Origin: Candidatus Poribacteria bacterium
GTDB lineage: Bacteria; Poribacteria; WGA-4E; WGA-3G
NCBI GenBank assembly: GCA_965208735.1
Contig: CBDBPM010000002.1
Coordinates: 2,985,961-3,049,960 of the forward strand
DNA: 64,000 bases
Direction: 5' to 3'
Shown: positions 3,779 to 44,208 of the stretch, in pieces
Numbering within the stretch: the first letter of the stretch is position 1
Layout: each line of letters opens with the position of its first letter
Program-made: the position numbers and the translations under genes
The notes under the pieces: generated by a model
Databases searched by the model: none
Seen by the model: only the letters and a program-made list of their open reading frames with translations
Told to the model about the DNA's origin: nothing

Positions 3779-4528
3779 ATGAAACAACGCGTACTCATTA
3801 CAGGTGCGGCTGGCACGGTCGGCACCGCGCTCTGGAAGGCGTGGGAAGAACAGGATACTTACACATTAACGTTGATGGATATCAATCCGATTGTGGACGC
3901 GAATTCGCGCGTGGTGATTGCTGATATTCGCGACTCTGCCGCGATGCAGACGTTGTGCCGCGAGCAAGATGTGTTGGTACATCTGGCATACATCCGCCAA
4001 GATTCGCTTGGGAAGGTGCCCGGCGAAGTCAGCGATATCGGTGCATCTATGAATCTGTTTGAAGCAGCACGAGAAGGTGGCGTTAAAAAGATTGTATACG
4101 CCAGCACGAATCACGTCTCGGGTTGGAATGAGCGATTGAACTCGCCACCCCGATTCTCGACAGGTGACCAGTTTCGTCCAGACGGTTGGTACGGTGCAAT
4201 GAAAGGCATGGCAGAGATTGCTGGACGGTATCTCGTGGATGCCCACGATATGCGGTTCATCAGTATCCGTATCGGGAGTTTCAACGGGACGGACGAACCG
4301 AGTGGGATTCGCCACTGTAGCATACTCCTAACCCCGCGAGATTGCGTCCAACTCTTCGGCTTGGCTGTTGATTACGATGGACCCGTTAAATATCTGATTA
4401 CGTACGGACGTTCTGCAAACTCTGACGGGTATCAGCAGAGCTATCTTGATATAAGCGGTGCTGTTGAGGTGTTAGGGTATCAACCGCAGGACAATTTGGT
4501 TAAAACGCATCTCCACCTTTTTTTATAA
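3779..4528 (+). CDS. NAD-dependent epimerase/dehydratase family protein (SDR Rossmann fold)
   Basis: N-terminal MKQRVLITGAAGTVGTAL glycine-rich NAD-binding motif, plus a conserved YxxxK-like region (WYGAMKG). 249 aa. Confidence 0.65.
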   Translation: MKQRVLITGAAGTVGTALWKAWEEQDTYTLTLMDINPIVDANSRVVIADIRDSAAMQTLCREQDVLVHLAYIRQDSLGKVPGEVSDIGASMNLFEAAREGGVKKIVYASTNHVSGWNERLNSPPRFSTGDQFRPDGWYGAMKGMAEIAGRYLVDAHDMRFISIRIGSFNGTDEPSGIRHCSILLTPRDCVQLFGLAVDYDGPVKYLITYGRSANSDGYQQSYLDISGAVEVLGYQPQDNLVKTHLHLFL

Positions 4529-4740
4529 TACCTTGCGGTTCGATCAAGGGGTTTGATGCGTTGGTGTCTTATTCCGTATATCCGTTCTCCATTACATTAC
4601 GAACTATGTTTTTCGTACTAAGAAGAAACTGATTTTTAATATACCTTGCGGTTCGGTCAAACGGGTTTGATGCGTTGGTGTCTTATTCCGTATATCCGTT
4701 CTCCATTACATTACGAACTATGTTTTTGTTTTTTTAAATA
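4528..4740 (+). repeat. Tandem direct duplication of about 113 bp (two copies), each starting ATACCTTGCGGTTCG and preceded by a TATAAT-like box
   Basis: Copy 1 is 4528-4640 and copy 2 is 4641-about 4740. They are near-identical over more than 95 bp, including cgttggtgtcttattccgtatatccgttctccattacattacgaactatgttttt. Confidence 0.85.
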
Positions 4741-5570: not shown

Positions 5571-7409
5571 ATGAACACAGAACAACAGGAAAAGGCGACC
5601 CCAGAATTGTGGCAATCGCTTCCGAATGTGCCGGGCGTTTATCTGATGAAAGCCTCCGATGGCACTGTCATCTATGTCGGGAAAGCGATCCGTCTGCGGA
5701 CACGGGTGCGCTCCTATTTCCGTGAGAAGTCTACATCTGGCTTGACATCGCAGATGATGCGGTATGTTACAGAGATTGATTACATTGTCACAGAGACGGA
5801 AGTAGAGGCGTTAATTCTGGAGAATAACCTGATTAAGGCGCATCAGCCCCGCTACAACGTGAAACTGAAAGACGATAAACGCTATCCCTATCTACGCGTA
5901 ACCACGAATGAACCCTTTCCGCGTATCCATATTACGCGGAAAGCCGAGAACGACGGCACACGATATTTCGGTCCCTTTGTTCACGTCCGTTCAACACGGC
6001 AGGTCGTTAAACAGTTAACGAAGTTCTTTCCTATTCGTACCTGTACCCTACCCCTCACGGAGACAGAAAATAAGTACCGGGTCTGTTTGGATTATCATAT
6101 TGGTCGGTGTCCGGGTCCGTGTGCAGATAAGATGAGTGTTGCAGATTACGACGAGATCGTTCAGAAGGTATGTCAGTTCTTGAGTGGGAACACAGATGCT
6201 GTTGTGAAAGAATTGACGGAGCAGATGGAAGCCGCAGCGGAGGCACTCGATTTTGAGACCGCCGCGAAGCATCGCGACACACTTAAAGACGTTCAGCAGG
6301 CGATTACAACACAGAATATGGATAGTGTCTCCGCGGCAGACGAAGATGTCATCGGCATTGCGGCGCGGACTGACATTGCGTGCGTGCAGCTGCTGCGGGT
6401 CCGGGATGGCAAGCTGCTTGAACGTGAGCACTATTACCTTAACGATGCAGATCCAGAGTCGCTCGCGACAGCATTAAGTGCGTTCATTTCGCAGTATTAT
6501 CAAAACGCTGTCTTCGTGCCAAAAACGGTTGTCTTGCCGATGCCGATTGCGTCCCTGGAACTGATCGCAAATTGGCTGAGCGAGAAGCGCGGGAGTCGTG
6601 TCGGAATACATGTGCCAAGAGCGGGGAGGCTCAGGAAGTTACAAACTTTGGCATCGAAAAACGCCGAGATTTTGCTGACGCAGCGGGAACAGAACGTGGT
6701 TTATAGCAGTGGCGTGGAACCCGCACTCGTTGAACTCCAGGAACTGCTTGAATTAAAACACCCGCTCAGACGGATTGAGGCGTACGATATTTCCAATCTC
6801 GGTGATCGGTTCGCCGTTGGGTCGATGGTGGTCTTGGAAGACGGGAAACCCGCTTCAAGTGAGTACCGCCGGTTCAAGATCCGATCGGTTGAAGGGCAGA
6901 ACGATTTCGCGATGATGCAAGAGGTGATCACGCGCCGTTTCCGCCGTGCCCTCGCAGACGATAAAAAATTTAATAAACTGCCGGATCTGATGCTGATTGA
7001 CGGTGGCAAAGGTCAACTGAGCACGGCACAGGCAGCTATGAAACCTTTCGCTACATCCCATCTTCCCGATATTCCGATGATTGCGCTGGCAAAGCGGATT
7101 GAGGAGATTTTCGTGCCCGGTAAAACAGAACCGATTGTGTTGCGGGAGGATAACCCGACCTTGCACATGATCCAACGGTTGCGAGATGAAGCGCACCGGT
7201 TCGCGATTACGTATCATCGGCAGCTCCGGCAAAAGTCGCTGAGTGTGTCTGTGCTTGACGAGATTCCGAACGTCGGTCCGAGGCGGAAACAGGCACTGCT
7301 CCAACATTTCGGTTCAATAGAGGCGATCCGGGAGGCGAGTTTAGACGGGTTGCTCTCTGTGAAAGGCATTCCCCGCAGCGTCGCCGAAAATATTCGAAAG
7401 CATCTCTAA
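5571..7409 (+). CDS. uvrC: Excinuclease ABC subunit C
   Basis: N-terminal GIY-YIG (PNVPGVYLMKASDGTVIYVGKA), UvrBC-interaction region, and C-terminal RNaseH-like/HhH region. 612 aa. Confidence 0.9.
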   Translation: MNTEQQEKATPELWQSLPNVPGVYLMKASDGTVIYVGKAIRLRTRVRSYFREKSTSGLTSQMMRYVTEIDYIVTETEVEALILENNLIKAHQPRYNVKLKDDKRYPYLRVTTNEPFPRIHITRKAENDGTRYFGPFVHVRSTRQVVKQLTKFFPIRTCTLPLTETENKYRVCLDYHIGRCPGPCADKMSVADYDEIVQKVCQFLSGNTDAVVKELTEQMEAAAEALDFETAAKHRDTLKDVQQAITTQNMDSVSAADEDVIGIAARTDIACVQLLRVRDGKLLEREHYYLNDADPESLATALSAFISQYYQNAVFVPKTVVLPMPIASLELIANWLSEKRGSRVGIHVPRAGRLRKLQTLASKNAEILLTQREQNVVYSSGVEPALVELQELLELKHPLRRIEAYDISNLGDRFAVGSMVVLEDGKPASSEYRRFKIRSVEGQNDFAMMQEVITRRFRRALADDKKFNKLPDLMLIDGGKGQLSTAQAAMKPFATSHLPDIPMIALAKRIEEIFVPGKTEPIVLREDNPTLHMIQRLRDEAHRFAITYHRQLRQKSLSVSVLDEIPNVGPRRKQALLQHFGSIEAIREASLDGLLSVKGIPRSVAENIRKHL

Positions 7410-7464
7410 ACGTTTTGCACAAATTTGTGCTTTTTTGCTAAAATTCTGCCCGTTATCGTGCAAT

Positions 7465-7595
7465 ATAGTTAATGGTTAATGGTTAATGGTTAATAGTTAT
7501 AAGTTAACATCTTCTTGCAGGCAGTTCTCTTGTGGAGTCCACAGCAGAACACCACAACACAGTAACTTATAACCATCAACTATTAACTATTACTG
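7465..7595. repeat. Heptamer-array inverted-repeat element #1: (GTTAATG)n left arm and (AACTATT)n right arm flanking a core palindrome of about 50 bp
   Basis: Left arm gttaatggttaatggttaatagttataagttaac. Right arm gtaacttataaccatcaactattaactatt. Core contains tgtggagtccaca. Confidence 0.75.
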
Positions 7596-7690
7596 GTTGG
7601 CATACTATTTGCAAAGGGAGATTAACGCTACCTTTGCTTTGATTCAGAAGTTTTTGAGGTTTTGAGAATTCCAGAACAGAGGAGGCAGGC

Positions 7691-8266
7691 ATGTCAACAC
7701 TTGCAGCACAGACATATCTGACACCCGCAGAATACATTGATGTGGAACGCAAGGCAGTTACCAAAAGTGAGTATCTGAGCGGACAGATAATAGCGATGTC
7801 GGGCGCGAGCAACGCCCACAATATCATTACGATGAATACAGCAAATCAGTTGTACAACCAATTGGTGGACCGAGATTGCCTCGTCTATGCCAGCGATATG
7901 CGCGTTCGGGTACATGCACCCGTCTCCTACTTCTATCCGGATATCGCTGTCGTTTGTGGGGAACCACGTTTTGAAGATGACGTTTTTGACACGCTTCTTA
8001 ACCCAACTGTCGTGATAGAAGTCCTGTCGCCTTCGACCGCAGCGTACGACCGGCGTGAGAAATTTACACGGTATCAACAGATTGCATCGCTGAAAGAATA
8101 CATCCTTATTTCGCAAAACCGAATACACCTGGAGCATCATCTCCGACAAGAAAACCAGTGGTCTGCAACCGAATTTCAAAAACTTGAGGATATAGTGTCT
8201 GTCACTTCAATTGAATGTGAGCTCCTTTTGGGGCATGTTTATAGACGCGTCACATTTTCGGACTGA
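7691..8266 (+). CDS. Uma2-family (DUF820) restriction-endonuclease-like protein
   Basis: 191 aa with Uma2 hallmarks: an N-terminal YxxL region, then conserved D...E.LSPS (VVIEVLSPST) and ...EYILI residues. Confidence 0.65.
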   Translation: MSTLAAQTYLTPAEYIDVERKAVTKSEYLSGQIIAMSGASNAHNIITMNTANQLYNQLVDRDCLVYASDMRVRVHAPVSYFYPDIAVVCGEPRFEDDVFDTLLNPTVVIEVLSPSTAAYDRREKFTRYQQIASLKEYILISQNRIHLEHHLRQENQWSATEFQKLEDIVSVTSIECELLLGHVYRRVTFSD

Positions 8267-19260: not shown

Positions 19261-19592
19261 TTATTCTTCGGTTTCTGTTGTTTCCGTGGAGGCGATAGGG
19301 ATATCTGGATTGAGGCGGGAGTGATGCATTGCCCAGTAGATAGCCGCTGTAATTACGCCGCCGATGAGGATTGCTATACCCCATATCGCAGGACCTGCTA
19401 TAATCAAAGTTCGTACGCGATCTAACCCAAAGTTCGTACGCGATCTAACCGAGCCGCGTCTCGGTAAACTGCTATAGCAAAGACGATTTTTATCAAGATT
19501 CCGAAAACTGTGGCAGCAATTCCCCAGACCACAGTCACCAGAGCCAATGTTATCAAAAAACCGGTATCTAAATCTGTAATGTCAAAATTCAT
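19261..19592 (-). pseudogene. Small membrane protein gene (~102 aa when repaired) frameshifted by a 23-bp tandem duplication
   Basis: Minus-strand ATG at 19592 with GGAG SD. Frame reads MNFDITDLDTGFLITLALVTVVWGIAATVFGILIKIVFAIAVYRDAARLDRVRTLG then a stop inside copy 2 of the repeat. Removing one 23-bp copy restores ...LDRVRTLIIAGPAIWGIAILIGGVITAAIYWAMHHSRLNPDIPIASTETTETEE, ending at the stop at 19261. Confidence 0.6.
19405..19450. repeat. Perfect 23-bp tandem direct duplication (CAAAGTTCGTACGCGATCTAACC x2)
   Basis: Read directly; 19405-19427 equals 19428-19450. Confidence 0.9.
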
Positions 19593-25121: not shown

Positions 25122-26303
25122 ATGAAAATAACTGAAATTCAGAATGAGTTGGCAGCGTTAGACTTAGACGCGTGGCTCCTATACGATTTTCGTGGGATAA
25201 ACCCGATTGCACAGAACGTCGCAGGCTTAGCGGAGGCACACATTACCCGCCGATGGTTCTGCCTTATCCCTAAACACGGTGAGCCGCGATGGTTGGTCCA
25301 TCGGATTGAGACATCAAACTTCACCAACGTGCAAGGACAGGTGGCGCTTTACGCAGGATGGGAAGAACTTAATGAGGCGATCCGTACCCTGCTTACGGGT
25401 GTCAAAATGGTTGCGATGGAGTATTCACCAAACGCCGAAATTCCCTACATTTCACGGGTAGATGCCGGCACGCTGGAGTGGATCCGTTCGTTTGGGATTG
25501 AAGTGCAAACGTCTGCGGAACTTGCACAACGGGTAGAGGCACGTCTCAGCGATGCGCAAGCAGCAGGACATCAGACATCCGCACACTCGGTATTGCGAGC
25601 GAAAGATTACGCTTTTGCGTGGATCGGTTCGCAGCTGCGTGATAGGAAAACAATTACGGAATACGACGTACAGCAAGAGATTCTCGGACAATTTGATGCA
25701 ATGGATTTGGTTACAGATCACCCACCGATTGTCGCTGTAAATGCAAAGAGCAGCGACCCGCACTATGCACCCAGTGCAACGGATACCCAAGCGATTAAAG
25801 CAGGTGATTTCATTCTGATCGATTTATGGGCAAAGCAGAAAGACCCAGATGCGGTTTTTGCGGACACGACATGGGTGGCTTATGCCGGGGAAACCGTCCC
25901 TACGCGGTACGTTGAAATTTTCGATATCGTCAAGGAAGCGCGGGATAAAGCCATACGATTCATCCGAGAAAAATGGGCAGTCGATGCACCCATTCACGGT
26001 TATGAGGTGGATGATTGTGTCCGCGGGTATATCACTGAAAAGGGATACGGACAATTCTTCATTCACCGTACAGGACACAACATCGGCACTGTTATCCACG
26101 GGAACGGCGTGAATTTAGATAACTTAGAGACGCGGGATGCACGTGCCTTGATCTCTGGTGTCTGTTTCTCAATTGAGCCGGGTATCTACCTCACCGATTT
26201 CGGCGTGCGGACAGAAGTTGACGTTTTCTTAGCCGGTCCAGGGAGAGACGGCGTAAAAGTGACAACCGCTCCCGTTCAAAATCAGGTATTACCATTGCTG
26301 TAA
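25122..26303 (+). CDS. Xaa-Pro aminopeptidase / M24-family metallopeptidase (creatinase-like N-domain plus pita-bread fold)
   Basis: M24 metal-ligand context HRTGHNIGTVIHG and ...FSIEPGIY.... Start set at the ATG at 25122 (MKITEIQNELA) rather than the overlapping track start. Confidence 0.65.
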   Translation: MKITEIQNELAALDLDAWLLYDFRGINPIAQNVAGLAEAHITRRWFCLIPKHGEPRWLVHRIETSNFTNVQGQVALYAGWEELNEAIRTLLTGVKMVAMEYSPNAEIPYISRVDAGTLEWIRSFGIEVQTSAELAQRVEARLSDAQAAGHQTSAHSVLRAKDYAFAWIGSQLRDRKTITEYDVQQEILGQFDAMDLVTDHPPIVAVNAKSSDPHYAPSATDTQAIKAGDFILIDLWAKQKDPDAVFADTTWVAYAGETVPTRYVEIFDIVKEARDKAIRFIREKWAVDAPIHGYEVDDCVRGYITEKGYGQFFIHRTGHNIGTVIHGNGVNLDNLETRDARALISGVCFSIEPGIYLTDFGVRTEVDVFLAGPGRDGVKVTTAPVQNQVLPLL

Positions 26304-27042
26304 CCTGATAATTCCGTTTTTTCAGATCTGTGAGGATGTGGGATAGGTAGAGACGTGAGTTGAGGATCCACTGATCGGCATACGCTGCGGCAAGCAGCGG
26401 AAGTGCTGTTGTCAAACGAGGAGACTCAAGAAGCCACTGCTCAGCGTATTCGGCAAAGTCTGTGTCTACAAGTCCACTACTTCCGAGTGAATAGATCGCA
26501 TAACGTTTATCGTCCCGCGTCTCCATTCTCGGATTGAGCTGCGTGTCGAGTGTGAGGCGTTTTGTGCTGTCGATCTCAAGCACCCAAAAGAAATAATCTT
26601 CATTGTGTCCAAGGTAACCGATTTCTACGTCAAGCCGGTGTGGAGTTTCAGTGGTGATTGGGATGACCACCATGTCGCGTTTGAGTAAGACCGGATAGAT
26701 CGCTGCAAAGAAAATTTGTTCAAATCCGAGCGGTTGATGTGCATGTATCAGAGTGTCTAAGAGAATCTGTTCTTGTTCCGGACGTTTCAGCTCTAAGCAG
26801 CTTTTTGAGAAGACTTCATCTCTGAGCGCACGCATCTCAGGAGGCGCGTTTGCGTGAAGCGGTTGGAGTTCTTGTATGAGTCTAAGAATACGGCGGCGTT
26901 TAGGTATGGTACGCCAAAGCACCCAATGCCATACGGTCTGCCACATCTCCCTTTCACGCAGTTGGCTAAGGAGTGCTATCGCGCTCGTAAAAAAGCGTTG
27001 GAATATACTTTCAGATGCAAGGTTTCGTTGTTGGTTCGCCAT
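26191..27042 (-). CDS. Hypothetical protein (283 aa)
   Basis: Long ORF with coding-like composition. No motif recognised. Its 3' end overlaps the M24 gene by 113 bp in convergent orientation, which is unusual. Confidence 0.35.
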   Translation of the reverse strand: MANQQRNLASESIFQRFFTSAIALLSQLREREMWQTVWHWVLWRTIPKRRRILRLIQELQPLHANAPPEMRALRDEVFSKSCLELKRPEQEQILLDTLIHAHQPLGFEQIFFAAIYPVLLKRDMVVIPITTETPHRLDVEIGYLGHNEDYFFWVLEIDSTKRLTLDTQLNPRMETRDDKRYAIYSLGSSGLVDTDFAEYAEQWLLESPRLTTALPLLAAAYADQWILNSRLYLSHILTDLKKRNYQVTAMVIPDFERERLSLLRRLSLDRLRKRQLLSARRNR

Positions 27043-27044
27043 GG

Positions 27045-27140
27045 TTTTTTAGTTGTTAGTTGTTAGTTGTCAGTTATTAGTTACAAAAGAGGCGCGTTAA
27101 ACGAAAACCTCTTAACTGAAAACTGATAACTACTCAAGAC
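27045..27140. repeat. Heptamer-array inverted-repeat element #2: (AGTTGTT)n left arm and (AACTGAW)n right arm
   Basis: agttgttagttgttagttgtcagttattagttac ... aactgaaaactgataactact, with a central aagagg...cctctt hairpin. Confidence 0.7.
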
Positions 27141-27197
27141 TGAAAGTTTTTTCAAAAAAACGGACTGATGGCTGACGGTTAATGGCCAATTGAAAAT

Positions 27198-31727: not shown

Positions 31728-31951
31728 ACACGAGGAATGTTCCTAAAAGGAACAAAAGGATCACCCTTGCTTTAGCTGGGTGAGTATGTCAATGGGTTAA
31801 TTGTCGTTAATAAAAAAGAACGCGAATCAAGGTTCAAACATCAATGTGTTTAGGAGACCTCGTCTACTGAGTGCTGAGCGCTGAGAACTGAAAAATTCTG
31901 TGCCGTTTTTTCTTGCATGTACGTTAATTCTATGGTATACTTAAAATCACT

Positions 31952-32441: not shown

Positions 32442-32792
32442 GGGGGTGTCCAGGTTTCGACGAAGGTAAATGAGATATAGGTTGCATGCCGAGGTCTCCG
32501 CAGGCCTCGTTAAATAGGCGGAACACTTATAATTGCTGATGAAGAATTAGCACTAGCTGCTTAAACGCGGCTACGCTTGACCGACCTGCTGCCCGTCAGG
32601 GAAGTTAAAGCGCCATAATACGGGCTAGCCGCTCGCTCTTTCTCAAGGCGCGTGCCGCGAACCACTTTTGAGATAGCCTATTATGAATCCTGCACAGGGG
32701 AGGCTTATAGGCGAATCTTAAAACCTGTGATAAGCATGTAGTAGCCTCTGTTGAAATGCCTTCGGACGCGGGTTCGATTCCCGCCACCTCCA
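32442..32792 (+). ncRNA. ssrA: Transfer-messenger RNA (tmRNA, SsrA); predicted tag reading frame 32520-32564 encoding GTLIIADEELALAA
   Basis: 5' GGGGGUGUCCAGGUUUCGACG. 3' T-arm GCGGGUUCGAUUCCCGC and acceptor CACCUCCA pairing with the 5' end. Internal ORF ends ...ALAA-stop. Directly downstream of smpB. Confidence 0.85.
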
Positions 32793-32889
32793 TTCCACAA
32801 CTGATACTCTTCTTGCCAGCGAAAGTCATCCGATCACTATCATCGTGATGGGATACTTTCGCAGACGATAGATTTGGTCGCGATATAAC

Positions 32890-38002: not shown

Positions 38003-39436
38003 ATGGTTTTCAGTTCGCATATCTTTGTTTATTACTTTCTGCCGATTGCCCTCTTAGGTTACTATCTGCTCCCGCGCCGGGCAAAACACTTCGGGTTGAC
38101 ACTCTTTAGTTATATCTTTTACGGCTGGGCAAACCCCTTGTTTGCTCCGCTAATGTTTGCCTCAACGCTGATTGATTATACGTGCGGACGAGTCATCTCA
38201 GGAAGTAAACATTCCCGCAATCGACCTGCAATATGCGCTTGCAAGCTGCGCCGCCAAGTAGCATTAACGGTTTCGGTCTGTTCAAATCTATCCCTTTTAG
38301 GCTTTTTCAAATACTTCAATTTCGGCATCGCGAACGTAAACGCTGTTATAGATTGGCTGGGTCTACCGATATGGGAGGGGGTTCTTCACGTAACACTTCC
38401 ACTTGGCATCAGTTTCTACACCTTCCAGTCGATGAGTTATACGATAGATGTCTATCGCGGCGATGCGAAGGCGATTCGGAATTTTATTGACTTCGCCTGT
38501 TATGTATCAATGTTTCCACAACTCGTTGCGGGTCCGATCGTTCGGTTTTCGGAGATTGCCGATCAGTTACGGCATCGCACGCACACGTTACAGAAGTTCG
38601 CTCGCGGTATCGCGTTCTTTTCGCTCGGCATGGCGAAGAAGATTTTGATAGCAAACCCTTGCGGCAAGTGTGCTGACACAGTCTTTGATGTCGGTGTTGT
38701 TGGTACCCTTGAGGCGTGGTATGGCGTCATCGCTTATGCGTTTCAGATCTATTTCGATTTTAGCGGTTATTCCGACATGGCGATCGGTCTGGGGTTGATG
38801 CTCGGATTTACTTTCCCCAAGAACTTTGATTCTCCGTACCGTGCTGAATCTATTACGGAGTTCTGGCGGCGATGGCATATCTCGCTTTCGAGTTGGTTGC
38901 GCGATTATCTCTATATTCCGCTCGGTGGCAACCGCCGAGGTGCTGCTCGCACCTACGTCAACTTGGCACTTGTGATGCTACTCGGTGGCTTATGGCACGG
39001 CGCGTCTTGGAATTTTGTTATCTGGGGCGGAATTCACGGCGGCATGCTCGCGCTTGAGAGAAAACGAGGAAAGGCGAGTTTTTACGGATCAATACCGAAA
39101 CCCTTACGGGTCGTAGCGACGTTTCTACTTGTGCTGATAGCGTGGGTTTTCTTTAGAATCAGTGAACTCCCGCATGCAGTCACCTATCTGCAATGTATGT
39201 TCAGCAATGTTCAGATTCACCCCAGCACTGATTTAATCGCGAGCATCCTCTATCAACCTTACTATCTATTGGTTATGTGTATAGCCGGTATTGTCGTTTG
39301 GTGTTTGCCACAGACGTGGGACTGGACGCAACGGTTGACCCCTCTCAGAATAGGGATATGCATAATCCTGCTCTGGTTATCTCTCGCTGTATTGGCAACG
39401 CAGACATATAATCCGTTTATCTATTTTATTTTTTAA
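38003..39436 (+). CDS. MBOAT-family membrane-bound O-acyltransferase (AlgI/DltB-like)
   Basis: 477 aa, polytopic, with the MBOAT signature ...FWRRWHISLSSWLRDYLYIPLGG... and a conserved His in ...GGLWHGASWNF.... Confidence 0.8.
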   Translation: MVFSSHIFVYYFLPIALLGYYLLPRRAKHFGLTLFSYIFYGWANPLFAPLMFASTLIDYTCGRVISGSKHSRNRPAICACKLRRQVALTVSVCSNLSLLGFFKYFNFGIANVNAVIDWLGLPIWEGVLHVTLPLGISFYTFQSMSYTIDVYRGDAKAIRNFIDFACYVSMFPQLVAGPIVRFSEIADQLRHRTHTLQKFARGIAFFSLGMAKKILIANPCGKCADTVFDVGVVGTLEAWYGVIAYAFQIYFDFSGYSDMAIGLGLMLGFTFPKNFDSPYRAESITEFWRRWHISLSSWLRDYLYIPLGGNRRGAARTYVNLALVMLLGGLWHGASWNFVIWGGIHGGMLALERKRGKASFYGSIPKPLRVVATFLLVLIAWVFFRISELPHAVTYLQCMFSNVQIHPSTDLIASILYQPYYLLVMCIAGIVVWCLPQTWDWTQRLTPLRIGICIILLWLSLAVLATQTYNPFIYFIF

Positions 39437-39572
39437 TAGTTATCAGTTATCAGTACGATTTTTCTGCGAAAAATCTTTCAGTACTCAGTTAAGAGGTGTG
39501 CTGTGGCAGTTACCAAAAACGTTACCGCCACAAGCGGGGAACTGATAACCGATAACTGATAACTGATAACCA
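39437..39572. repeat. Heptamer-array inverted-repeat element #3: (AGTTATC)n left arm and (AACTGAT)n right arm
   Basis: tagttatcagttatcagtac ... actgataaccgataactgataactgataacc, with internal hairpins gatttttctgcgaaaaatc and tgtggc...gccaca. Confidence 0.75.
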
Positions 39573-39577
39573 TTCAC

Positions 39578-41137
39578 ATGCGAAACTTAGCTGAAAGTCG
39601 CCGGGAGACTGCTGTAAAAGAACTCGGCTCCACACAAATCAAACGAAATGTAAGCATTGTCGGTCTTGTCATCTTCAGTGTGACGCTGCTGTCCGTTCCG
39701 ATCTGCCAATTGATCTCCGATGGTCTGCGTGGTGAGTCGCCTCACATCTTTCGAGCAATTAATTTGTTACCGGTCCCTAACCTCACAGAGATTGAGCAGT
39801 ACGAGGATACGCTGGAGGAAGAATCTGTACTGACCCATTGGCTGTTGCCGAGCGTTCAGACGGTTCTGACGCAGATGTTCTTTATCGGCAACGAACAAGC
39901 CTATCTCGGACGCGACGGGTGGTTATTCTACCGTGCCGACATAGATTCACTCATTACTCCTGACTCCCAAGAAACTGCAAGCACAGCACTCGCTGCCATT
40001 ATCGACTTCAATCGTCAGTTGCAAGCACGCGACATCACGCTTATCATTGTGCCAACACCTGTTAAACCAACAATTCACCCTGAAAAGTTCTCGACACGTT
40101 CCCGAACCGCTAATGCACCAATACAGAACCCTTCCTACGCAGCGTTTGTTGAGACACTTACGGCAGAAGGCGTGCTTGTATACGATCCCTCGCCACTGCT
40201 CTTTGCAGCTGCCCGCCGAGACCCACAATATCTCAAAACGGATACACACTGGAAACCGGAAGCGATGGAACGCGTCGCGAAACAATTGGCTGCATTTATT
40301 GAGGACAAGGTTCAACTGTCCTCAGATCCATCGTTTACGTACCTCAAAACACCCGCGGATACTGCTAATATCGGGGATATCGCGAAGATGTTAAAACTGC
40401 CGGAAGATCAGTCGCTGTTTCCCTCAGAACACGTCACACGCCATGTTGTTCAGATCCCTTCAGGGAACCTATGGCAACCCGTGCAGGCATCAGAGATTCT
40501 ATTTTTGGGAGATAGTTTCAGCAACATCTATTCGCTTGCGGGTATGGGATGGGGCGATTCCGCGGGTTTCGTTGAACATCTCAGCGCAGAACTTGCGCGA
40601 CCGATTGATAAAATTGTCATCAACGCTGGTGGTGCTGATGCAACGCGTCAGGCACTTGTACAGGGACTCAACCGTGGACACGATCGCCTCGCTGGGAAAC
40701 GCGTGCTTGTCTATCAGTTCGCAACGCGGGAACTCTTCTCTGGCGATTGGAAACTATTATCAATACCACAGGTTCAAACTGCTGAGCAGTCACAAACGAC
40801 ATTGACTGACCAAAGCGAAGACATAGTTGTTACGGCAACTATCAAGGCAAAGACAGAACCGCCGATGCCGCGAACCGTTCCGTATTCCGAATGCATCATC
40901 GCGCTACATCTTGAAAATCTTGAGACAGTTCATCTGCCAGCGGAATTCGCTGTATTTTTGTGGGGCATGCGTGAGAATCAGTGGACAAATGCCGCTACTT
41001 TCAAAGTAGGACAGAAAATTGAGCTGCGGCTCCGTCCATGGACAGCGGTTGAAACTGAATACGGCAGCTACAATCGCAAGGAGTTGGAGGATGAAGACGC
41101 GTGGTTACTGGATGTTTATTGGGGAGAGATACCGTGA
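39578..41137 (+). CDS. DHHW-family protein (AlgJ/AlgX-like O-acetyltransferase component)
   Basis: N-terminal TM helix; ...GRDGWLFY... and the DTHW motif (KTDTHWKPE). Confidence 0.6.
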   Translation: MRNLAESRRETAVKELGSTQIKRNVSIVGLVIFSVTLLSVPICQLISDGLRGESPHIFRAINLLPVPNLTEIEQYEDTLEEESVLTHWLLPSVQTVLTQMFFIGNEQAYLGRDGWLFYRADIDSLITPDSQETASTALAAIIDFNRQLQARDITLIIVPTPVKPTIHPEKFSTRSRTANAPIQNPSYAAFVETLTAEGVLVYDPSPLLFAAARRDPQYLKTDTHWKPEAMERVAKQLAAFIEDKVQLSSDPSFTYLKTPADTANIGDIAKMLKLPEDQSLFPSEHVTRHVVQIPSGNLWQPVQASEILFLGDSFSNIYSLAGMGWGDSAGFVEHLSAELARPIDKIVINAGGADATRQALVQGLNRGHDRLAGKRVLVYQFATRELFSGDWKLLSIPQVQTAEQSQTTLTDQSEDIVVTATIKAKTEPPMPRTVPYSECIIALHLENLETVHLPAEFAVFLWGMRENQWTNAATFKVGQKIELRLRPWTAVETEYGSYNRKELEDEDAWLLDVYWGEIP

Positions 41138-43104: not shown

Positions 43105-44070
43105 CTACTCGGTTACAATTTCTGGTGAAGATGCTTCTGCCTTGAGCGTATCGGACTTCTTTATTAACCTGTCTACATTCGATTTGAAAAGTCTGAAAAC
43201 GGTATCATTATCGTCACGTTTGGCGTAAAGTTTCCCCTCTGCCTCGTTTCCGATGTACAGCGTTGCCGTGGTGCCATCATTCAAGGCAGCAGATATAACG
43301 GATTGCGGGGTATTTAAACCGTATTCAGCAAGGTCGTTCTGTGCTTCAGCAAAGTCGTCCGTATTCAATCCACTAAGCGTTGTAAGAAGGTTGTCAACCT
43401 CAGTTGTATTGGCGATAGCGGCTTCAGGCTTGAGCATCTGCCATGCCCCGTCTGCATCGAGACGCAATTCGACCGTTTCTTCTGGTGAAGAGATGTTAAG
43501 CTCGGTGACAATACCTTTGTTAAAATCAAAGATGGTCCGATCTTTCCAAGTGCGTGTACCTTTGTTAAAAACGGATTGGAGATTGCCTTGTGCGACATAG
43601 ACATCGTTGGAATCCGCTGCGCGCACGTAACTACTCAGAAAGCCGGGGGTTATTTTTCCAACAAACAGGTGTGCTAACACTTTATCGTTTACGTCTATCA
43701 GTTTCGCTTCGACACCAGTGCTATCCACTTCAAATTCTGCCTGTTTTTCTGGGTTACTGGAGACGCGCTGCGTATCCTTAAATTCTCCGACTTTGGTCAA
43801 CAGTTCAGCAACGCCTTCGCTATCCGCGGGATAGTTCTCCATTGAGGCTACTACCCATGCGCCCTCTTGTTTTGAGAGCGTTGTCGTTTCACCGGTAGCG
43901 ATGATCTCTATTTTCGCAACCTGTTCTTTATCGAAGCTTGGAAACAGCAGTGTTGCTGTTTGAACCTTCTTCTCGTATTCGCTCTGTCCAAATGGGTTCT
44001 CGAAGACAACGACAACGATTGCCAAAACGACGAGAACGCCACCTAAGATAAGAAGTTGTTTCGTTTTCAT
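43105..44070 (-). CDS. DUF4340-like periplasmic protein, fourth gene of the GldA/F/G-type ABC cluster
   Basis: N-terminal TM or signal anchor. Its position downstream of the GldG-like gene matches the conserved four-gene arrangement. Confidence 0.4.
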   Translation of the reverse strand: MKTKQLLILGGVLVVLAIVVVVFENPFGQSEYEKKVQTATLLFPSFDKEQVAKIEIIATGETTTLSKQEGAWVVASMENYPADSEGVAELLTKVGEFKDTQRVSSNPEKQAEFEVDSTGVEAKLIDVNDKVLAHLFVGKITPGFLSSYVRAADSNDVYVAQGNLQSVFNKGTRTWKDRTIFDFNKGIVTELNISSPEETVELRLDADGAWQMLKPEAAIANTTEVDNLLTTLSGLNTDDFAEAQNDLAEYGLNTPQSVISAALNDGTTATLYIGNEAEGKLYAKRDDNDTVFRLFKSNVDRLIKKSDTLKAEASSPEIVTE

Positions 44071-44208
44071 TTTTCGTATTTCGTATAAGGAGTAGTTCCA
44101 AATGTTCAGTTATGAGGTGTCTGTTATCGACCCATTGTGCTGATAACAAACAACCATTGGGGTTTATGTAATCAGTAGATTCGACCTTTTTTGATCACAC
44201 CGATTCAG

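What the first reader, a model, noticed from the sequence alone, without database searches (positions are those of the whole stretch)
7465..7595. Family of heptamer-array inverted-repeat intergenic elements (three copies: 7465-7595, 27045-27140, 39437-39572)
Each element has a left arm of tandem 7-bp units of the form AGTTnnn/GTTAATG and a right arm of the reverse-complementary units (AACTnnn). These flank a GC-richer core of 50-90 bp that itself contains a short palindrome. The heptamer sequence differs between copies (GTTAATG, AGTTGTT, AGTTATC), but the architecture and the AGTT/AACT core are conserved. All three lie in intergenic DNA directly after gene ends (uvrC, the gene at 27042, the MBOAT gene). 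They could be MITE-like mobile elements, arrays of regulator-binding heptads such as iterons, or structured RNAs. I do not recognise them as a described repeat family.
Basis: seen in the sequence. Interest (0 to 1): 0.6.

Follow-up and report, generated by a model that had tools for sequence, protein, structure and literature searches.

The report
Paired TAACTGA-repeat hairpins in Poribacteria
Three hairpin-forming stretches between genes of a sponge-symbiont (Poribacteria) genome are built from mirror-image arrays of a 7-base repeat (TAACTGA type) already described in other bacteria; they are real, fast-changing insertions that usually end just before a gene start, and whether they tune gene expression or do nothing is still untested.

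Summary
All three sites carry period-7 arrays facing their reverse complement across a 30-86 nt core, and they are the only such arrays in the 64 kb. The window is from Candidatus Poribacteria. The repeat unit is not new: it is the TAACTGA-type heptamer described in Beggiatoaceae, Cyanobacteria and Bacteroidetes, where arrays point at start codons (MacGregor 2015). Paired heptanucleotide arrays on opposite strands were also noted in Geobacter metallireducens (2009). New here: in Poribacteria the arrays mostly come as inverted pairs, always (TCAGTTA)n-core-(TAACTGA)n. Several share an inner seed, TCAGTTAAGAGG...CCTCTTAACTGA. Relatives show gain and loss: an empty site has the MBOAT stop and AlgX start 3 nt apart. 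Arms change in 7-nt steps, even between strains with identical flanking proteins, and both arms change heptamer together. Two of the three window elements end 6 nt before a start codon lacking a Shine-Dalgarno. One correction: the gene at 27042 starts there, on the minus strand; it does not end there. Best reading: a dispersed family of palindromic simple-sequence elements evolving by slippage. Once transcribed they form long leader or intercistronic hairpins that probably modulate translation or mRNA processing. That function is inferred; a neutral or selfish origin is nearly as likely.

The parts
7465..7506 (.). Element 1, left arm. Six reverse-type heptads: ATAGTTAATG GTTAATG GTTAATG GTTAATA GTTATAA GTTA.
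   Evidence: The unit number differs in orthologues: 6 here, 4 in L003, 2 in L010.
7507..7562 (.). Element 1, core of 56 nt with an inner palindrome at 7524-7550.
   Evidence: The core is 94-100% identical in L001, L003 and L010.
7563..7592 (.). Element 1, right arm. Forward-type heptads: TAACTTA TAACCAT CAACTAT TAACTAT TA.
   Evidence: Right-arm units number 5 here, 7 in L003 and 6 in L010.
7416..7459 (+). Context of element 1. Two palindromic TGCAC-N6-GTGCA-type sites, GCACAAATTTGTGC and TGCCCGTTATCGTGCA, just upstream of the element. They are probably enhancer-binding-protein sites. The first also scores as a weak terminator.
   Evidence: This is an inference from conservation in 69 of 71 loci.
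7598..7613 (+). Context of element 1. A sigma-54-type -24/-12 promoter (TGGCATACTATTTGCA) lies 5 nt after the right arm.
   Evidence: It is the only consensus match in the window. It is conserved in 68 of 71 poribacterial uvrC-yibE/F spacers.
27045..27083 (-). Element 2, left arm. Read on the minus strand it is TAACTAA TAACTGA CAACTAA CAACTAA CAACTAA, then AAAACC, then the ATG of the 283-aa gene (start codon 27040-27042, minus strand).
27084..27113 (.). Element 2, core. Inner stem AAGAGG (27087-27092) / CCTCTT (27108-27113) around a small loop. It contains the seed CCTCTTAACTGA (27108-27119).
   Evidence: A homologous core occurs in L029 500-525 and in L097-L100.
27113..27132 (+). Element 2, right arm: TAACTGA AAACTGA TAACTAC.
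39435..39454 (.). Element 3, outer left arm (AATAGTTATCAGTTATCAGT). It starts inside the MBOAT stop codon (TAA, 39434-39436).
39457..39475 (.). Mini-hairpin GATTTTTCTGCGAAAAATC nested in the left arm of element 3.
   Evidence: The exact 15-mer TTTTTCTGCGAAAAA recurs only in L029 545-559, inside another heptad element.
39478..39498 (.). Element 3, inner left-arm units (TCAGTAC TCAGTTA AGAGGTG), including the seed TCAGTTAAGAGG (39485-39496).
39502..39532 (.). Element 3, core hairpin TGTGGCAGTTAC...GTTACCGCCACA.
39540..39571 (+). Element 3, right arm: AACTGA TAACCGA TAACTGA TAACTGA TAACC. It ends 6 nt (ATTCAC) before the AlgX-like ATG at 39578, with no Shine-Dalgarno.

Best explanation
What it is (well supported). 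The three elements belong to a dispersed family of small palindromic intergenic elements in Poribacteria.
- Their arms are simple-sequence arrays of the TAACTGA-type heptamer.
- The polarity is always 5'-(TCAGTTA-like)n - variable core - (TAACTGA-like)n-3', so forward arrays face outward on both strands.
- Many carry a conserved inner seed, TCAGTTAAGAGG...CCTCTTAACTGA.
- They appear as insertions at gene junctions.
- Each arm gains and loses 7-nt units by replication slippage. Small hairpin modules can nest inside them.

How it most likely works (inferred).
- Most copies lie in transcribed leaders or intercistronic spacers. There the RNA folds into a 20-35 bp A/U-rich hairpin.
- The 3' arm of that hairpin ends a few nucleotides before the start codon, which often has no Shine-Dalgarno.
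- This would gate ribosome access to the initiation region, or offer a long duplex to RNase III-type processing.
- Unit-number changes would then alter expression of the downstream gene heritably, as in a tuning knob or contingency locus.
For: Identity
- The arm units are TAACTGA and single-base variants. This matches the repeat family of PMC4679880.
- In about 1.65 Mb (80 poribacterial uvrC loci plus the window), all 24 arrays of at least three AAC[TC] units at period 7 are intergenic, although 86% of that DNA is coding (P about 3e-21). About 1.6 arrays are expected by chance.

Inverted pairing
- 15 of 28 arrays have a significant ungapped partner, always on the 5' side and never on the 3' side.
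- Most of the remaining arrays pair with bulges in folds.
- A non-poribacterial control set (IMG/VR contigs holding (TAACTGA)3) gives only 7 of 140. Fisher P = 3.7e-9.

Common descent
- The 12-mer TCAGTTAAGAGG occurs 10 times at four or more independent sites (0.22 expected) and never in the control set.
- A CCTCT/CTCTT/CTCCT pentamer lies within 16 nt 5' of 14 of 31 forward arrays, against a 2.9% background.
- The 15-mer mini-hairpin and core 2 are shared with L029.

Gain and loss
- L083 has the MBOAT stop, 3 nt, then the AlgX ATG. The window and L082 have the 140-nt element at that place.
- Another junction is 11-19 nt long in some genomes, including the window's own strain. It is up to 242 nt when filled.

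Slippage
- Element 1 has 6/5, 4/7 and 2/6 left/right units in the window, L003 and L010, around a conserved core.
- Contigs encoding the identical 283-aa protein differ by one or two units: L097/L098 versus L099, and L091 versus L092.

The two arms co-vary in heptamer type. Within-element complementarity averages 11.1 against 6.5 between elements (permutation P = 5e-5).

Position
- 14 of 27 poribacterial forward arrays have a start codon of an ORF of at least 80 aa within 60 nt. The median distance is 6 nt. Only 2 of 27 have one behind them.
- Element 3 lies inside a likely MBOAT-AlgX operon with no promoter hit.
- In relatives the element lies between the sigma-54 promoter and the yibE/F ATG.

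Precedent
- The (ATCTTTC)n heptamer repeat of H. influenzae hmw is transcribed and forms a long 5'-UTR hairpin.
- That hairpin is cut by RNase III and sets expression (PMC12721329).
Against: - No expression data exist, so transcription of the elements is inferred from position.
- Folding the mRNA-sense strand is not consistently better than folding the antisense strand (24 elements). There is therefore no G-U signature of selection on the RNA rather than on the DNA.
- Element 1 lies upstream of the sigma-54 promoter and after a weak terminator-like site. It is not next to a start codon.
- The elements are dispensable. Orthologous genes keep the same start codon and the same lack of a Shine-Dalgarno with or without them.
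- The arms are often unbalanced. In some strains the left arm is reduced to one or two units.
- The same junctions are also filled by unrelated hairpin inserts. This suits tolerated invasion as well as it suits function.
- Nearness to a start codon is partly automatic for something that fills a short spacer.
Confidence: 0.5

Rival explanations
1. Neutral or selfish DNA. These would be palindromic simple-sequence insertions that spread or arise at gene junctions. They persist only where tolerated and have no function. Forward arrays carry stop codons in all three frames, so they cannot sit in genes. A self-folding insert also disturbs neighbouring signals least.
For: - Presence and absence vary among close relatives while the flanking genes and start codons stay unchanged.
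- The same junction is filled by several unrelated hairpin families.
- Turnover of units and cores is rapid.
- There is no strand-specific folding advantage.
- Where a Shine-Dalgarno exists, the inserts stop just short of it.
Against: - The single polarity and the conserved 12-nt seed need a source mechanism or selection.
- The forward orientation towards start codons is shared with unrelated phyla (PMC4679880).
- The two arms co-vary.
- No transposase or other mobilising function has been identified.
Confidence: 0.3
2. DNA-level element. The paired heptad arrays would be binding sites for a nucleoid-associated or regulatory protein, as proposed for the paired sites of Geobacter metallireducens. 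Alternatively they would extrude as cruciforms. Either way they would act on transcription or DNA bending.
For: - Stability is equal on both strands.
- Element 1 sits exactly between the putative enhancer sites and the sigma-54 promoter, where bending proteins act.
- The Geobacter paper interprets its paired sites this way (PMC2700814).
Against: - The heptamer differs between sites and lineages: GTTAATG, TCAGTTA, GACAGCC, TTAGGTG, AAACGTA.
- The unit number is unstable.
- There is no match to the IHF consensus inside the elements.
- Most copies lie downstream of promoters or inside operons.
Confidence: 0.12
3. A classical MITE or REP-type element, moved as a unit by a transposase (a DDE enzyme, or a RAYT/IS200-like enzyme recognising the hairpin).
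For: - An empty versus filled site exists.
- A seed and modules are shared between loci and species.
- The element is palindromic and strictly extragenic.
Against: - There are no near-identical copies. The cores of the three window elements are unrelated.
- There is no conserved terminal inverted repeat at the outer ends.
- No consistent target-site duplication appears. There is only a suggestive AAGG-type duplication at one junction.
- No transposase was seen next to any copy.
Confidence: 0.05
4. Independent small-RNA genes or transcription terminators.
For: Strong hairpins. One lies at the 3' end of uvrC.
Against: - There is no Rfam match. The only hits are far sub-threshold matches to microRNA-precursor models, plus one to a Listeria sRNA model.
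- The stems are A/U-rich and no U-tract follows the big hairpins. The terminator scan hits only small unrelated stems.
- No promoter lies in front of them.
- Sequence is not conserved between orthologues.
Confidence: 0.03

Closest known systems
Intergenic TAACTGA direct heptamer repeats of marine Beggiatoaceae, some Cyanobacteria and Bacteroidetes (MacGregor 2015, PMC4679880)
   Same: - Same heptamer and single-base variants.
- 2-6 tandem copies.
- Almost all are intergenic.
- 'Forward' orientation, ending a few nt before start codons that mostly lack a ribosome-binding site.
- Indels come in 7-nt steps between strains.
- Function unknown; translational control was proposed.
   Different: - In the Beggiatoa genome 169 sets are direct and only one is inverted. 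In Poribacteria the arrays mostly come with a reverse-complement array upstream and a core between them, forming a long hairpin.
- A conserved inner seed, TCAGTTAAGAGG/CCTCTTAACTGA, is present.
- The phylum (Poribacteria) is new; one Kiritimatiellia-like contig also carries such an element.
- Heptamer types are lineage-specific.
Paired 'putative global regulator binding sites' of Geobacter metallireducens, class 3: five tandem heptanucleotides MTYCTGA, eight pairs (Aklujkar et al. 2009, PMC2700814)
   Same: - Tandem 7-nt (classes 1 and 2: 8-9 nt) units occur in two sites on opposite strands at variable distance.
- They are multicopy and intergenic. One lies between two genes of an operon (proB-proA).
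- Untested.
   Different: - The heptamer is different.
- The copies are near-identical enough to be found by BLAST.
- They were interpreted as IHF/HU-type DNA sites.
- No relation to start codons, polarity rule or unit-number polymorphism was reported.
H. influenzae hmw1A/hmw2A 5'-UTR heptamer repeat (ATCTTTC)n (Rapun-Araiz et al. 2025, PMC12721329)
   Same: - A heptamer simple-sequence repeat lies in a transcribed leader.
- The repeats form one arm of a long hairpin.
- Copy number varies between strains and sets expression.
   Different: - There the other arm is a G-rich non-repeat region.
- RNase III cleavage and phase variation are shown by experiment.
- It is a single locus type in a pathogen, not a dispersed family.
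Cyanobacterial short tandemly repeated heptamers (STRR; Mazel et al. 1990, from my own knowledge) and Nostoc PCC 7120 heptamer repeats near start codons (bioRxiv 10.1101/2022.06.06.494920)
   Same: - Tandem heptamers lie in intergenic DNA close to start codons or promoters.
- There are many different heptamers per genome.
- A regulatory role is suspected.
   Different: - The heptamers are different.
- They are described as direct arrays.
- No paired inverted architecture or inner seed is reported in what I could read.
REP/BIME/REPIN elements and the small dispersed repeats (SDR) of Nostoc (Elhai et al. 2008, from my own knowledge; that paper could not be opened)
   Same: - Small extragenic palindromes invade intercistronic spacers.
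- Short modules nest within each other.
- Hairpins can stabilise or uncouple operon mRNAs.
   Different: - REPs are near-identical 20-40 nt units tied to RAYT transposases.
- Here the arms are slippage-prone heptad arrays, the cores are unrelated and no transposase is known.

Membership tests
TAACTGA-type intergenic heptamer repeats (MacGregor 2015) | Tandem direct copies (2 or more) of TAACTGA or single-base variants | tested here: met
   - Element 3, right arm: AACTGA TAACCGA TAACTGA TAACTGA TAACC.
- Element 2, on the minus strand: TAACTAA TAACTGA CAACTAA x3.
- Element 1: TAACTTA TAACCAT CAACTAT TAACTAT.

TAACTGA-type intergenic heptamer repeats (MacGregor 2015) | Intergenic location | tested here: met
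   24 of 24 arrays in 1.65 Mb (poribacterial loci plus the window) are intergenic, against 86% coding DNA.
TAACTGA-type intergenic heptamer repeats (MacGregor 2015) | Forward orientation ending within a few nt of a start codon, usually without a Shine-Dalgarno | tested here: met
   - Elements 2 and 3 end 6 nt before an ATG with no Shine-Dalgarno.
- 14 of 27 arrays have a start within 60 nt, median 6 nt.
- This is not met for element 1.
TAACTGA-type intergenic heptamer repeats (MacGregor 2015) | Arrays stand alone as direct repeats with no structure-forming partner | tested here: not met
   An inverted partner array lies upstream of 15 of 28 arrays by a strict test, and of most of the rest in folds. 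In the Beggiatoa genome the ratio is 1 of 170. In the IMG/VR control it is 7 of 140.
Geobacter-type paired tandem short-repeat sites | Two sites of 3-5 tandem 7-9 nt units on opposite strands at variable distance, multicopy | tested here: met
   Arm spacing is 30-100 nt. Ten or more independent sites were found.
Geobacter-type paired tandem short-repeat sites | Bound by IHF/HU-type or other global regulator (the authors' hypothesis) | not testable with these tools
   The only check possible was the E. coli IHF consensus WATCAANNNNTTR. It has no hit inside the elements.
Transcribed heptamer-repeat leader hairpin (hmw type) | Heptamer repeat whose copy number differs between strains | tested here: met
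   Differences of one or two units occur between contigs encoding identical proteins.
Transcribed heptamer-repeat leader hairpin (hmw type) | Repeats form an arm of a long, stable hairpin in the 5' UTR | tested here: inconclusive
   Hairpins are predicted, with z from -4.7 to -9. Position in a leader or operon spacer is inferred. There is no transcript evidence and no sense-strand bias.
Transcribed heptamer-repeat leader hairpin (hmw type) | RNase III cleavage and copy-number-dependent expression | not testable with these tools
   This needs RNA 5'/3'-end mapping and reporter assays.
MITE | Terminal inverted repeats with flanking target-site duplication | tested here: not met
   No direct repeat flanks element 3 when compared with the empty site. 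The outer ends are variable arrays. A weak AAGG-like duplication appears at one junction only.
MITE | Many near-identical copies per genome | tested here: not met
   The cores of the three elements are unrelated. Only a 12-nt seed, a 15-nt mini-hairpin and one 26-nt core are shared. A whole genome was not available.
REP/REPIN | Near-identical 20-40 nt palindromes associated with a RAYT transposase | not tested
   No RAYT search was run. The copies are not near-identical.
Iterons / regulator heptad arrays | The same recognition sequence repeated at every site, next to a replication or regulated gene | tested here: not met
   The heptamer differs between the three elements and between lineages at the same site.
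Intrinsic terminator | G+C-rich stem followed by a U-tract | tested here: not met
   The scans find no terminator formed by the heptad hairpins. The stems are A/U-rich.
Any Rfam RNA family | Covariance-model match at gathering score | tested here: not met
   The best scores are 14-23 bits, against gathering scores of 54-180.

The most novel reading that the evidence does not exclude
The elements could be the cis part of a genome-wide, phase-variable translational control system in an uncultivated sponge symbiont.
- The unstructured (UAACUGA)n array would be a landing or standby site for a specific factor (S1-, Csp- or other single-strand binder) at start codons lacking a Shine-Dalgarno.
- The complementary array, plus the inner stem that resembles a Shine-Dalgarno paired to an anti-Shine-Dalgarno (AAGAGG/CCUCUU), would form a gate sensitive to RNase III or to temperature.
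- 7-nt slippage would switch individual genes between expression states within the symbiont population.
Probability: 0.12. Interest if true: 0.75.

Novelty: new variant of a known kind. Interest (0 to 1): 0.4.

Why it matters
- Tandem heptamers next to bacterial start codons have been noticed for decades, including STRR, TAACTGA repeats and the paired sites of Geobacter. Outside one pathogen locus, none has an established function.
- The poribacterial version adds handles for testing. It has a fixed polarity, a conserved inner seed and a complementary partner array that predicts a defined RNA or DNA structure. It also has natural alleles that differ by single units or lack the element entirely.
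- If the hairpins modulate translation, they would be a simple and evolvable expression dial in symbionts that cannot be cultured.
- If they are inert, they are a clean example of self-folding simple-sequence DNA invading operon junctions. They are also a practical warning for gene-start and operon annotation in these genomes.

Tried and rejected
- **Known RNA family.** Rfam at gathering and at permissive thresholds gave nothing.
- **Terminator.** The scans found no G+C-rich stem plus U-tract formed by the arms.
- **Strand of selection.** I compared sense and antisense folding energies for 24 elements to detect RNA-level selection. There was no consistent bias, so this is uninformative.
- **Target-site duplication.** An empty versus filled comparison was possible at two junctions. 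The relatives are too diverged for exact borders, and nothing convincing appeared.
- **IHF site.** No consensus hit lies in the elements.
- **Cores as dispersed repeats.** BLAST of all cores against 1.65 Mb found orthologues and three short shared modules only.
- **uvrC terminator.** GCACAAATTTGTGC-T6 looked like the uvrC terminator. Comparison shows it is one of two conserved palindromic sites before a sigma-54 promoter. It may still terminate weakly.
- **Metagenome scan with the AlgX-like protein.** It returned only five loci, but one was the empty site.
- **Elhai et al. 2008.** The paper on small dispersed repeats in Nostoc could not be opened. The comparison with it rests on memory.
- **Limits of the scans.** No whole-genome census could be made, and no Beggiatoa or cyanobacterial genome could be checked directly. 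The IMG/VR contigs holding (TAACTGA)3 served as the outside comparison.
Full report
**1. The observation**

Tandem Repeats Finder reports these period-7 arrays:
- 7468-7499: GTTAATG, 4.6 copies
- 7570-7592: TAACTAT, 3.3 copies
- 27049-27082: TTAGTTG, 4.9 copies
- 39438-39454: AGTTATC, 2.4 copies
- 39540-39570: AACTGAT, 4.4 copies

The left and right arrays are reverse complements: 30 nt at 87%, 20 nt at 85% and 20 nt at 95%. Each core holds a smaller palindrome. These are the only places in the 64 kb where AGTT or AACT recurs at period 7.

The predicted single-strand folds beat shuffles on both strands. The weakest z-score is -2.6, for the minus strand of element 2, and the strongest is -9.

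In 1.65 Mb of related DNA, 15 of 96 period-7 arrays have an inverted partner. The figures are 0 of 302 for period 5, 4 of 525 for period 6 and 0 of 61 for period 8. The feature is real and not chance.

**2. Source and gene context**

UvrC (5571-7409) is 95% identical to proteins of Candidatus Poribacteria genomes assembled from metagenomes. Eighty syntenic loci were fetched. An ENA contig of the same strain carries an identical element 1.

*Element 1.*
- It lies after uvrC, between two conserved palindromic TGCAC-N6-GTGCA-type sites and a sigma-54-type promoter, TGGCAT-N5-TTGCA.
- That promoter is conserved in 68 of 71 loci and precedes a variably present Uma2 gene and a YibE/F gene.

*Element 2.*
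- It lies between the promoter of a tRNA-Leu gene and the start codon of a minus-strand 283-aa gene.
- That gene is conserved at exactly 283 aa in 257 database proteins.

*Element 3.*
- It fills the 141-nt spacer between an MBOAT gene and an AlgX-like gene, a pairing typical of an O-acetylation operon.
- No promoter hit lies in that spacer.

**3. The repeat unit is a described one**

The arms read TAACTGA, TAACCGA, CAACTAA, TAACTAT and similar units.

MacGregor (2015, PMC4679880) described abundant intergenic TAACTGA direct repeats in marine Beggiatoaceae, some Cyanobacteria and some Bacteroidetes.
- They come in sets of 2-6 copies.
- They are oriented 'forward' and end a few nucleotides before start codons that mostly lack a ribosome-binding site.
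- The function is unknown. In that Beggiatoa genome 169 sets were direct and one was inverted.

The poribacterial arrays fit on the following counts:
- All 24 arrays in 1.65 Mb (poribacterial loci plus the window) are intergenic, against 86% coding DNA.
- 14 of 27 have a start codon within 60 nt, at a median of 6 nt.
- Elements 2 and 3 end 6 nt before an ATG with no Shine-Dalgarno, while other genes here do have one. The Uma2 gene has GGAGG, and the junction studied keeps AAGGAG.

A second precedent covers the paired layout. [quoted passage not shown] Eight of those pairs consist of five tandem heptanucleotides (MTYCTGA), and one pair lies between proB and proA. The authors guessed that they are IHF/HU sites.

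No paper in the library links Poribacteria with heptamers.

**4. What is particular to Poribacteria**

*Inverted pairing is the rule.*
- 15 of 28 arrays have a significant ungapped partner.
- Most of the rest pair with bulges in folds.
- The outside comparison was 80 IMG/VR contig stretches that hold (TAACTGA)3, with G+C of 39%. There only 7 of 140 arrays are paired. Fisher P = 3.7e-9.

*There is one polarity.*
- The partner is always 5' of the forward array, never 3' (15 versus 0). The same holds for the few paired cases in the control set.
- The layout is therefore always (TCAGTTA)n-core-(TAACTGA)n, with forward arrays facing outward on both strands.

*A conserved inner seed exists.*
- TCAGTTAAGAGG, or its complement CCTCTTAACTGA, occurs 10 times at four or more independent sites, against 0.22 expected. 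It never occurs in the control set.
- A CCTCT-type pentamer precedes 14 of 31 forward arrays, against a 2.9% background.
- Read as RNA, the seed pairs a Shine-Dalgarno-like AAGAGG with an anti-Shine-Dalgarno-like CCUCUU. That resemblance is my inference and is untested.

*Modules are shared.*
- The 15-mer TTTTTCTGCGAAAAA nested in the left arm of element 3 recurs only inside another heptad element, in L029.
- That L029 element also shares the core of element 2.
- GTTATAAGTTAA is shared by elements at three different sites.

*More distant lineages use other heptamers in the same layout.*
- Examples are TTAGGTG/CCTAAGA, AAACGTA/ACGTTTT and TCGGCTA/GACAGCC.
- A Kiritimatiellia-like contig has a compact version between a stop and a start codon.

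**5. Evolutionary behaviour**

*Element 1.* The 56-nt core is 94-100% conserved in three relatives. The arms have 6/5, 4/7 and 2/6 units, with indels in exact 7-nt steps that are independent on the two sides.

*Element 2.*
- Contigs encoding the identical 283-aa protein differ by one TAACTGA unit (L097/L098 versus L099). Others differ by two AAACTAA units (L091 versus L092).
- Other lineages carry different heptads or almost none at the same place.

*Element 3.*
- A 91%-identical relative (L082) has the element with four perfect TAACTGA units.
- A 65%-identical relative (L083) has the MBOAT stop, three nucleotides, then the AlgX ATG. That is an empty site.

*A further junction.* This junction, several kb upstream of uvrC in the fetched loci, is 11-19 nt long in several genomes, including the window's own strain. 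Elsewhere it is filled by heptad hairpins or by at least three unrelated hairpin repeat families. The insert always lies between the stop codon and the Shine-Dalgarno.

*Co-variation.* The two arms of an element change heptamer together (permutation P = 5e-5).

The elements are thus gained and lost. They evolve by slippage, and they keep their complementarity.

**6. Mechanism**

*Shown:* the anatomy, polarity, seed, turnover and position.

*Inferred:*
- Most copies are transcribed. They lie between a promoter and an ATG in relatives, or inside operon spacers.
- The RNA then forms a 20-35 bp A/U-rich stem whose 3' arm ends at the initiation region.

The nearest tested analogue is the (ATCTTTC)n leader of H. 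influenzae hmw. There the repeats form one arm of a long 5'-UTR hairpin, RNase III cleaves it, and copy number sets expression (PMC12721329). I therefore favour a cis-acting modulation of translation or mRNA processing, tunable by unit number.

Arguments against:
- Folding shows no sense-strand advantage.
- Element 1 lies upstream of the promoter.
- The elements are dispensable.
- The same junctions accept unrelated hairpins.

A neutral or selfish 'self-folding insertion' reading is nearly as good. A DNA-level protein-binding reading, as proposed for Geobacter, cannot be excluded. It fits poorly, however, with the diversity of heptamers and the absence of an IHF consensus.

**7. Verdict**

The family is not undescribed, though. 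It is a new variant of the TAACTGA/STRR-type heptamer repeats, found in a new phylum, with a paired inverted architecture, a fixed polarity and a conserved inner seed. Interest is moderate (0.4). The function is as open as it has been for this class of repeat, but these elements offer unusually clean natural alleles for testing it.

Noticed in passing
window 7416-7459 and 7598-7613: A conserved sigma-54-type promoter, TGGCAT-N5-TTGCA, is the only consensus match in the window. Two palindromic TGCAC-N6-GTGCA-type sites precede it. The arrangement lies between uvrC and the YibE/F gene in 68-69 of 71 poribacterial loci. The YibE/F gene therefore seems to depend on an enhancer-binding protein.
   Followed up: partly
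window 7691-8266; L003, L075, L077, L078: The Uma2-family (putative endonuclease) gene between the sigma-54 promoter and the YibE/F gene is present in only about 15 of the relatives. It survives as 3' or 5' remnants in others, so it behaves like an inserted or eroding gene.
   Followed up: partly
L010, L015, L018, L019, L020, L022, L024, L027, L077 (intercistronic junction several kb upstream of uvrC): A different poribacterial hairpin repeat, CTCTTAAAGTCCCCCTGATAAGGGGGATTTAGGGGGTTAGAAAT, occurs in 1-4 tandem copies at one operon junction. Its hairpin motifs (three sub-strings searched) are absent from the window. Two further unrelated hairpin inserts occupy the same junction in other genomes.
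   Followed up: partly
window 26191-26303: The conserved 283-aa gene (minus strand) and the M24 peptidase gene (plus strand) converge and overlap by 113 nt at their 3' ends. The same overlap appears in the gene calls of all fetched relatives.
   Followed up: no
window 4520-4727: A 114-nt unit is tandemly duplicated (1.8 copies, 94% identity). It runs from the last 9 nt of the ORF ending at 4528 into the TTG-started ORF listed from 4646.
   Followed up: no
window 31867-31891 and 44059-44086: Two more period-7 arrays have other units, (A/G)CTGAG(T/C/A) and TTTCGTA, and no inverted partner. The first is intergenic. The second overlaps the start of the minus-strand ORF 43105..44070.
   Followed up: no
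window 27146-27187: Beyond element 2 lie a small GTTTTTTCAAAAAAAC hairpin and degenerate heptads (GGACTGA TGGCTGA CGGTTAA). They are homologous to the (GGTCAGC)5 array that L093/L094 carry at the same place.
   Followed up: partly
window 19405-19450: A perfect tandem duplication of a 23-nt unit (CAAAGTTCGTACGCGATCTAACC).
   Followed up: no
window 32442-32795: A tmRNA gene with the predicted tag ADEELALAA. smpB lies nearby in relatives.
   Followed up: no
L101-L180 (IMG/VR contigs): (TAACTGA)3 or longer occurs in 107 stretches of contigs classed as viral, with arrays of up to 13 units. Nearly all are direct. More of them point away from the nearest start codon (43) than towards it (16), unlike in Poribacteria.
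   Followed up: partly
L084 8308-8368: A contig whose proteins best match Kiritimatiellia (G+C 56%) has a compact heptad hairpin, CAGGTTC AAGGTTT ACAGTT-GAATA-AACTTTA AACTGTG AACCTGG AACTGTG AACTTTG. It sits exactly between a stop codon and the next gene's start.
   Followed up: partly
L087-L094, next to the M24 peptidase gene: The region beside the element 2 locus is a variable island of defence-type genes (NACHT/SIR2, Type ISP restriction-modification, ParE/RelB) that differs between strains.
   Followed up: no
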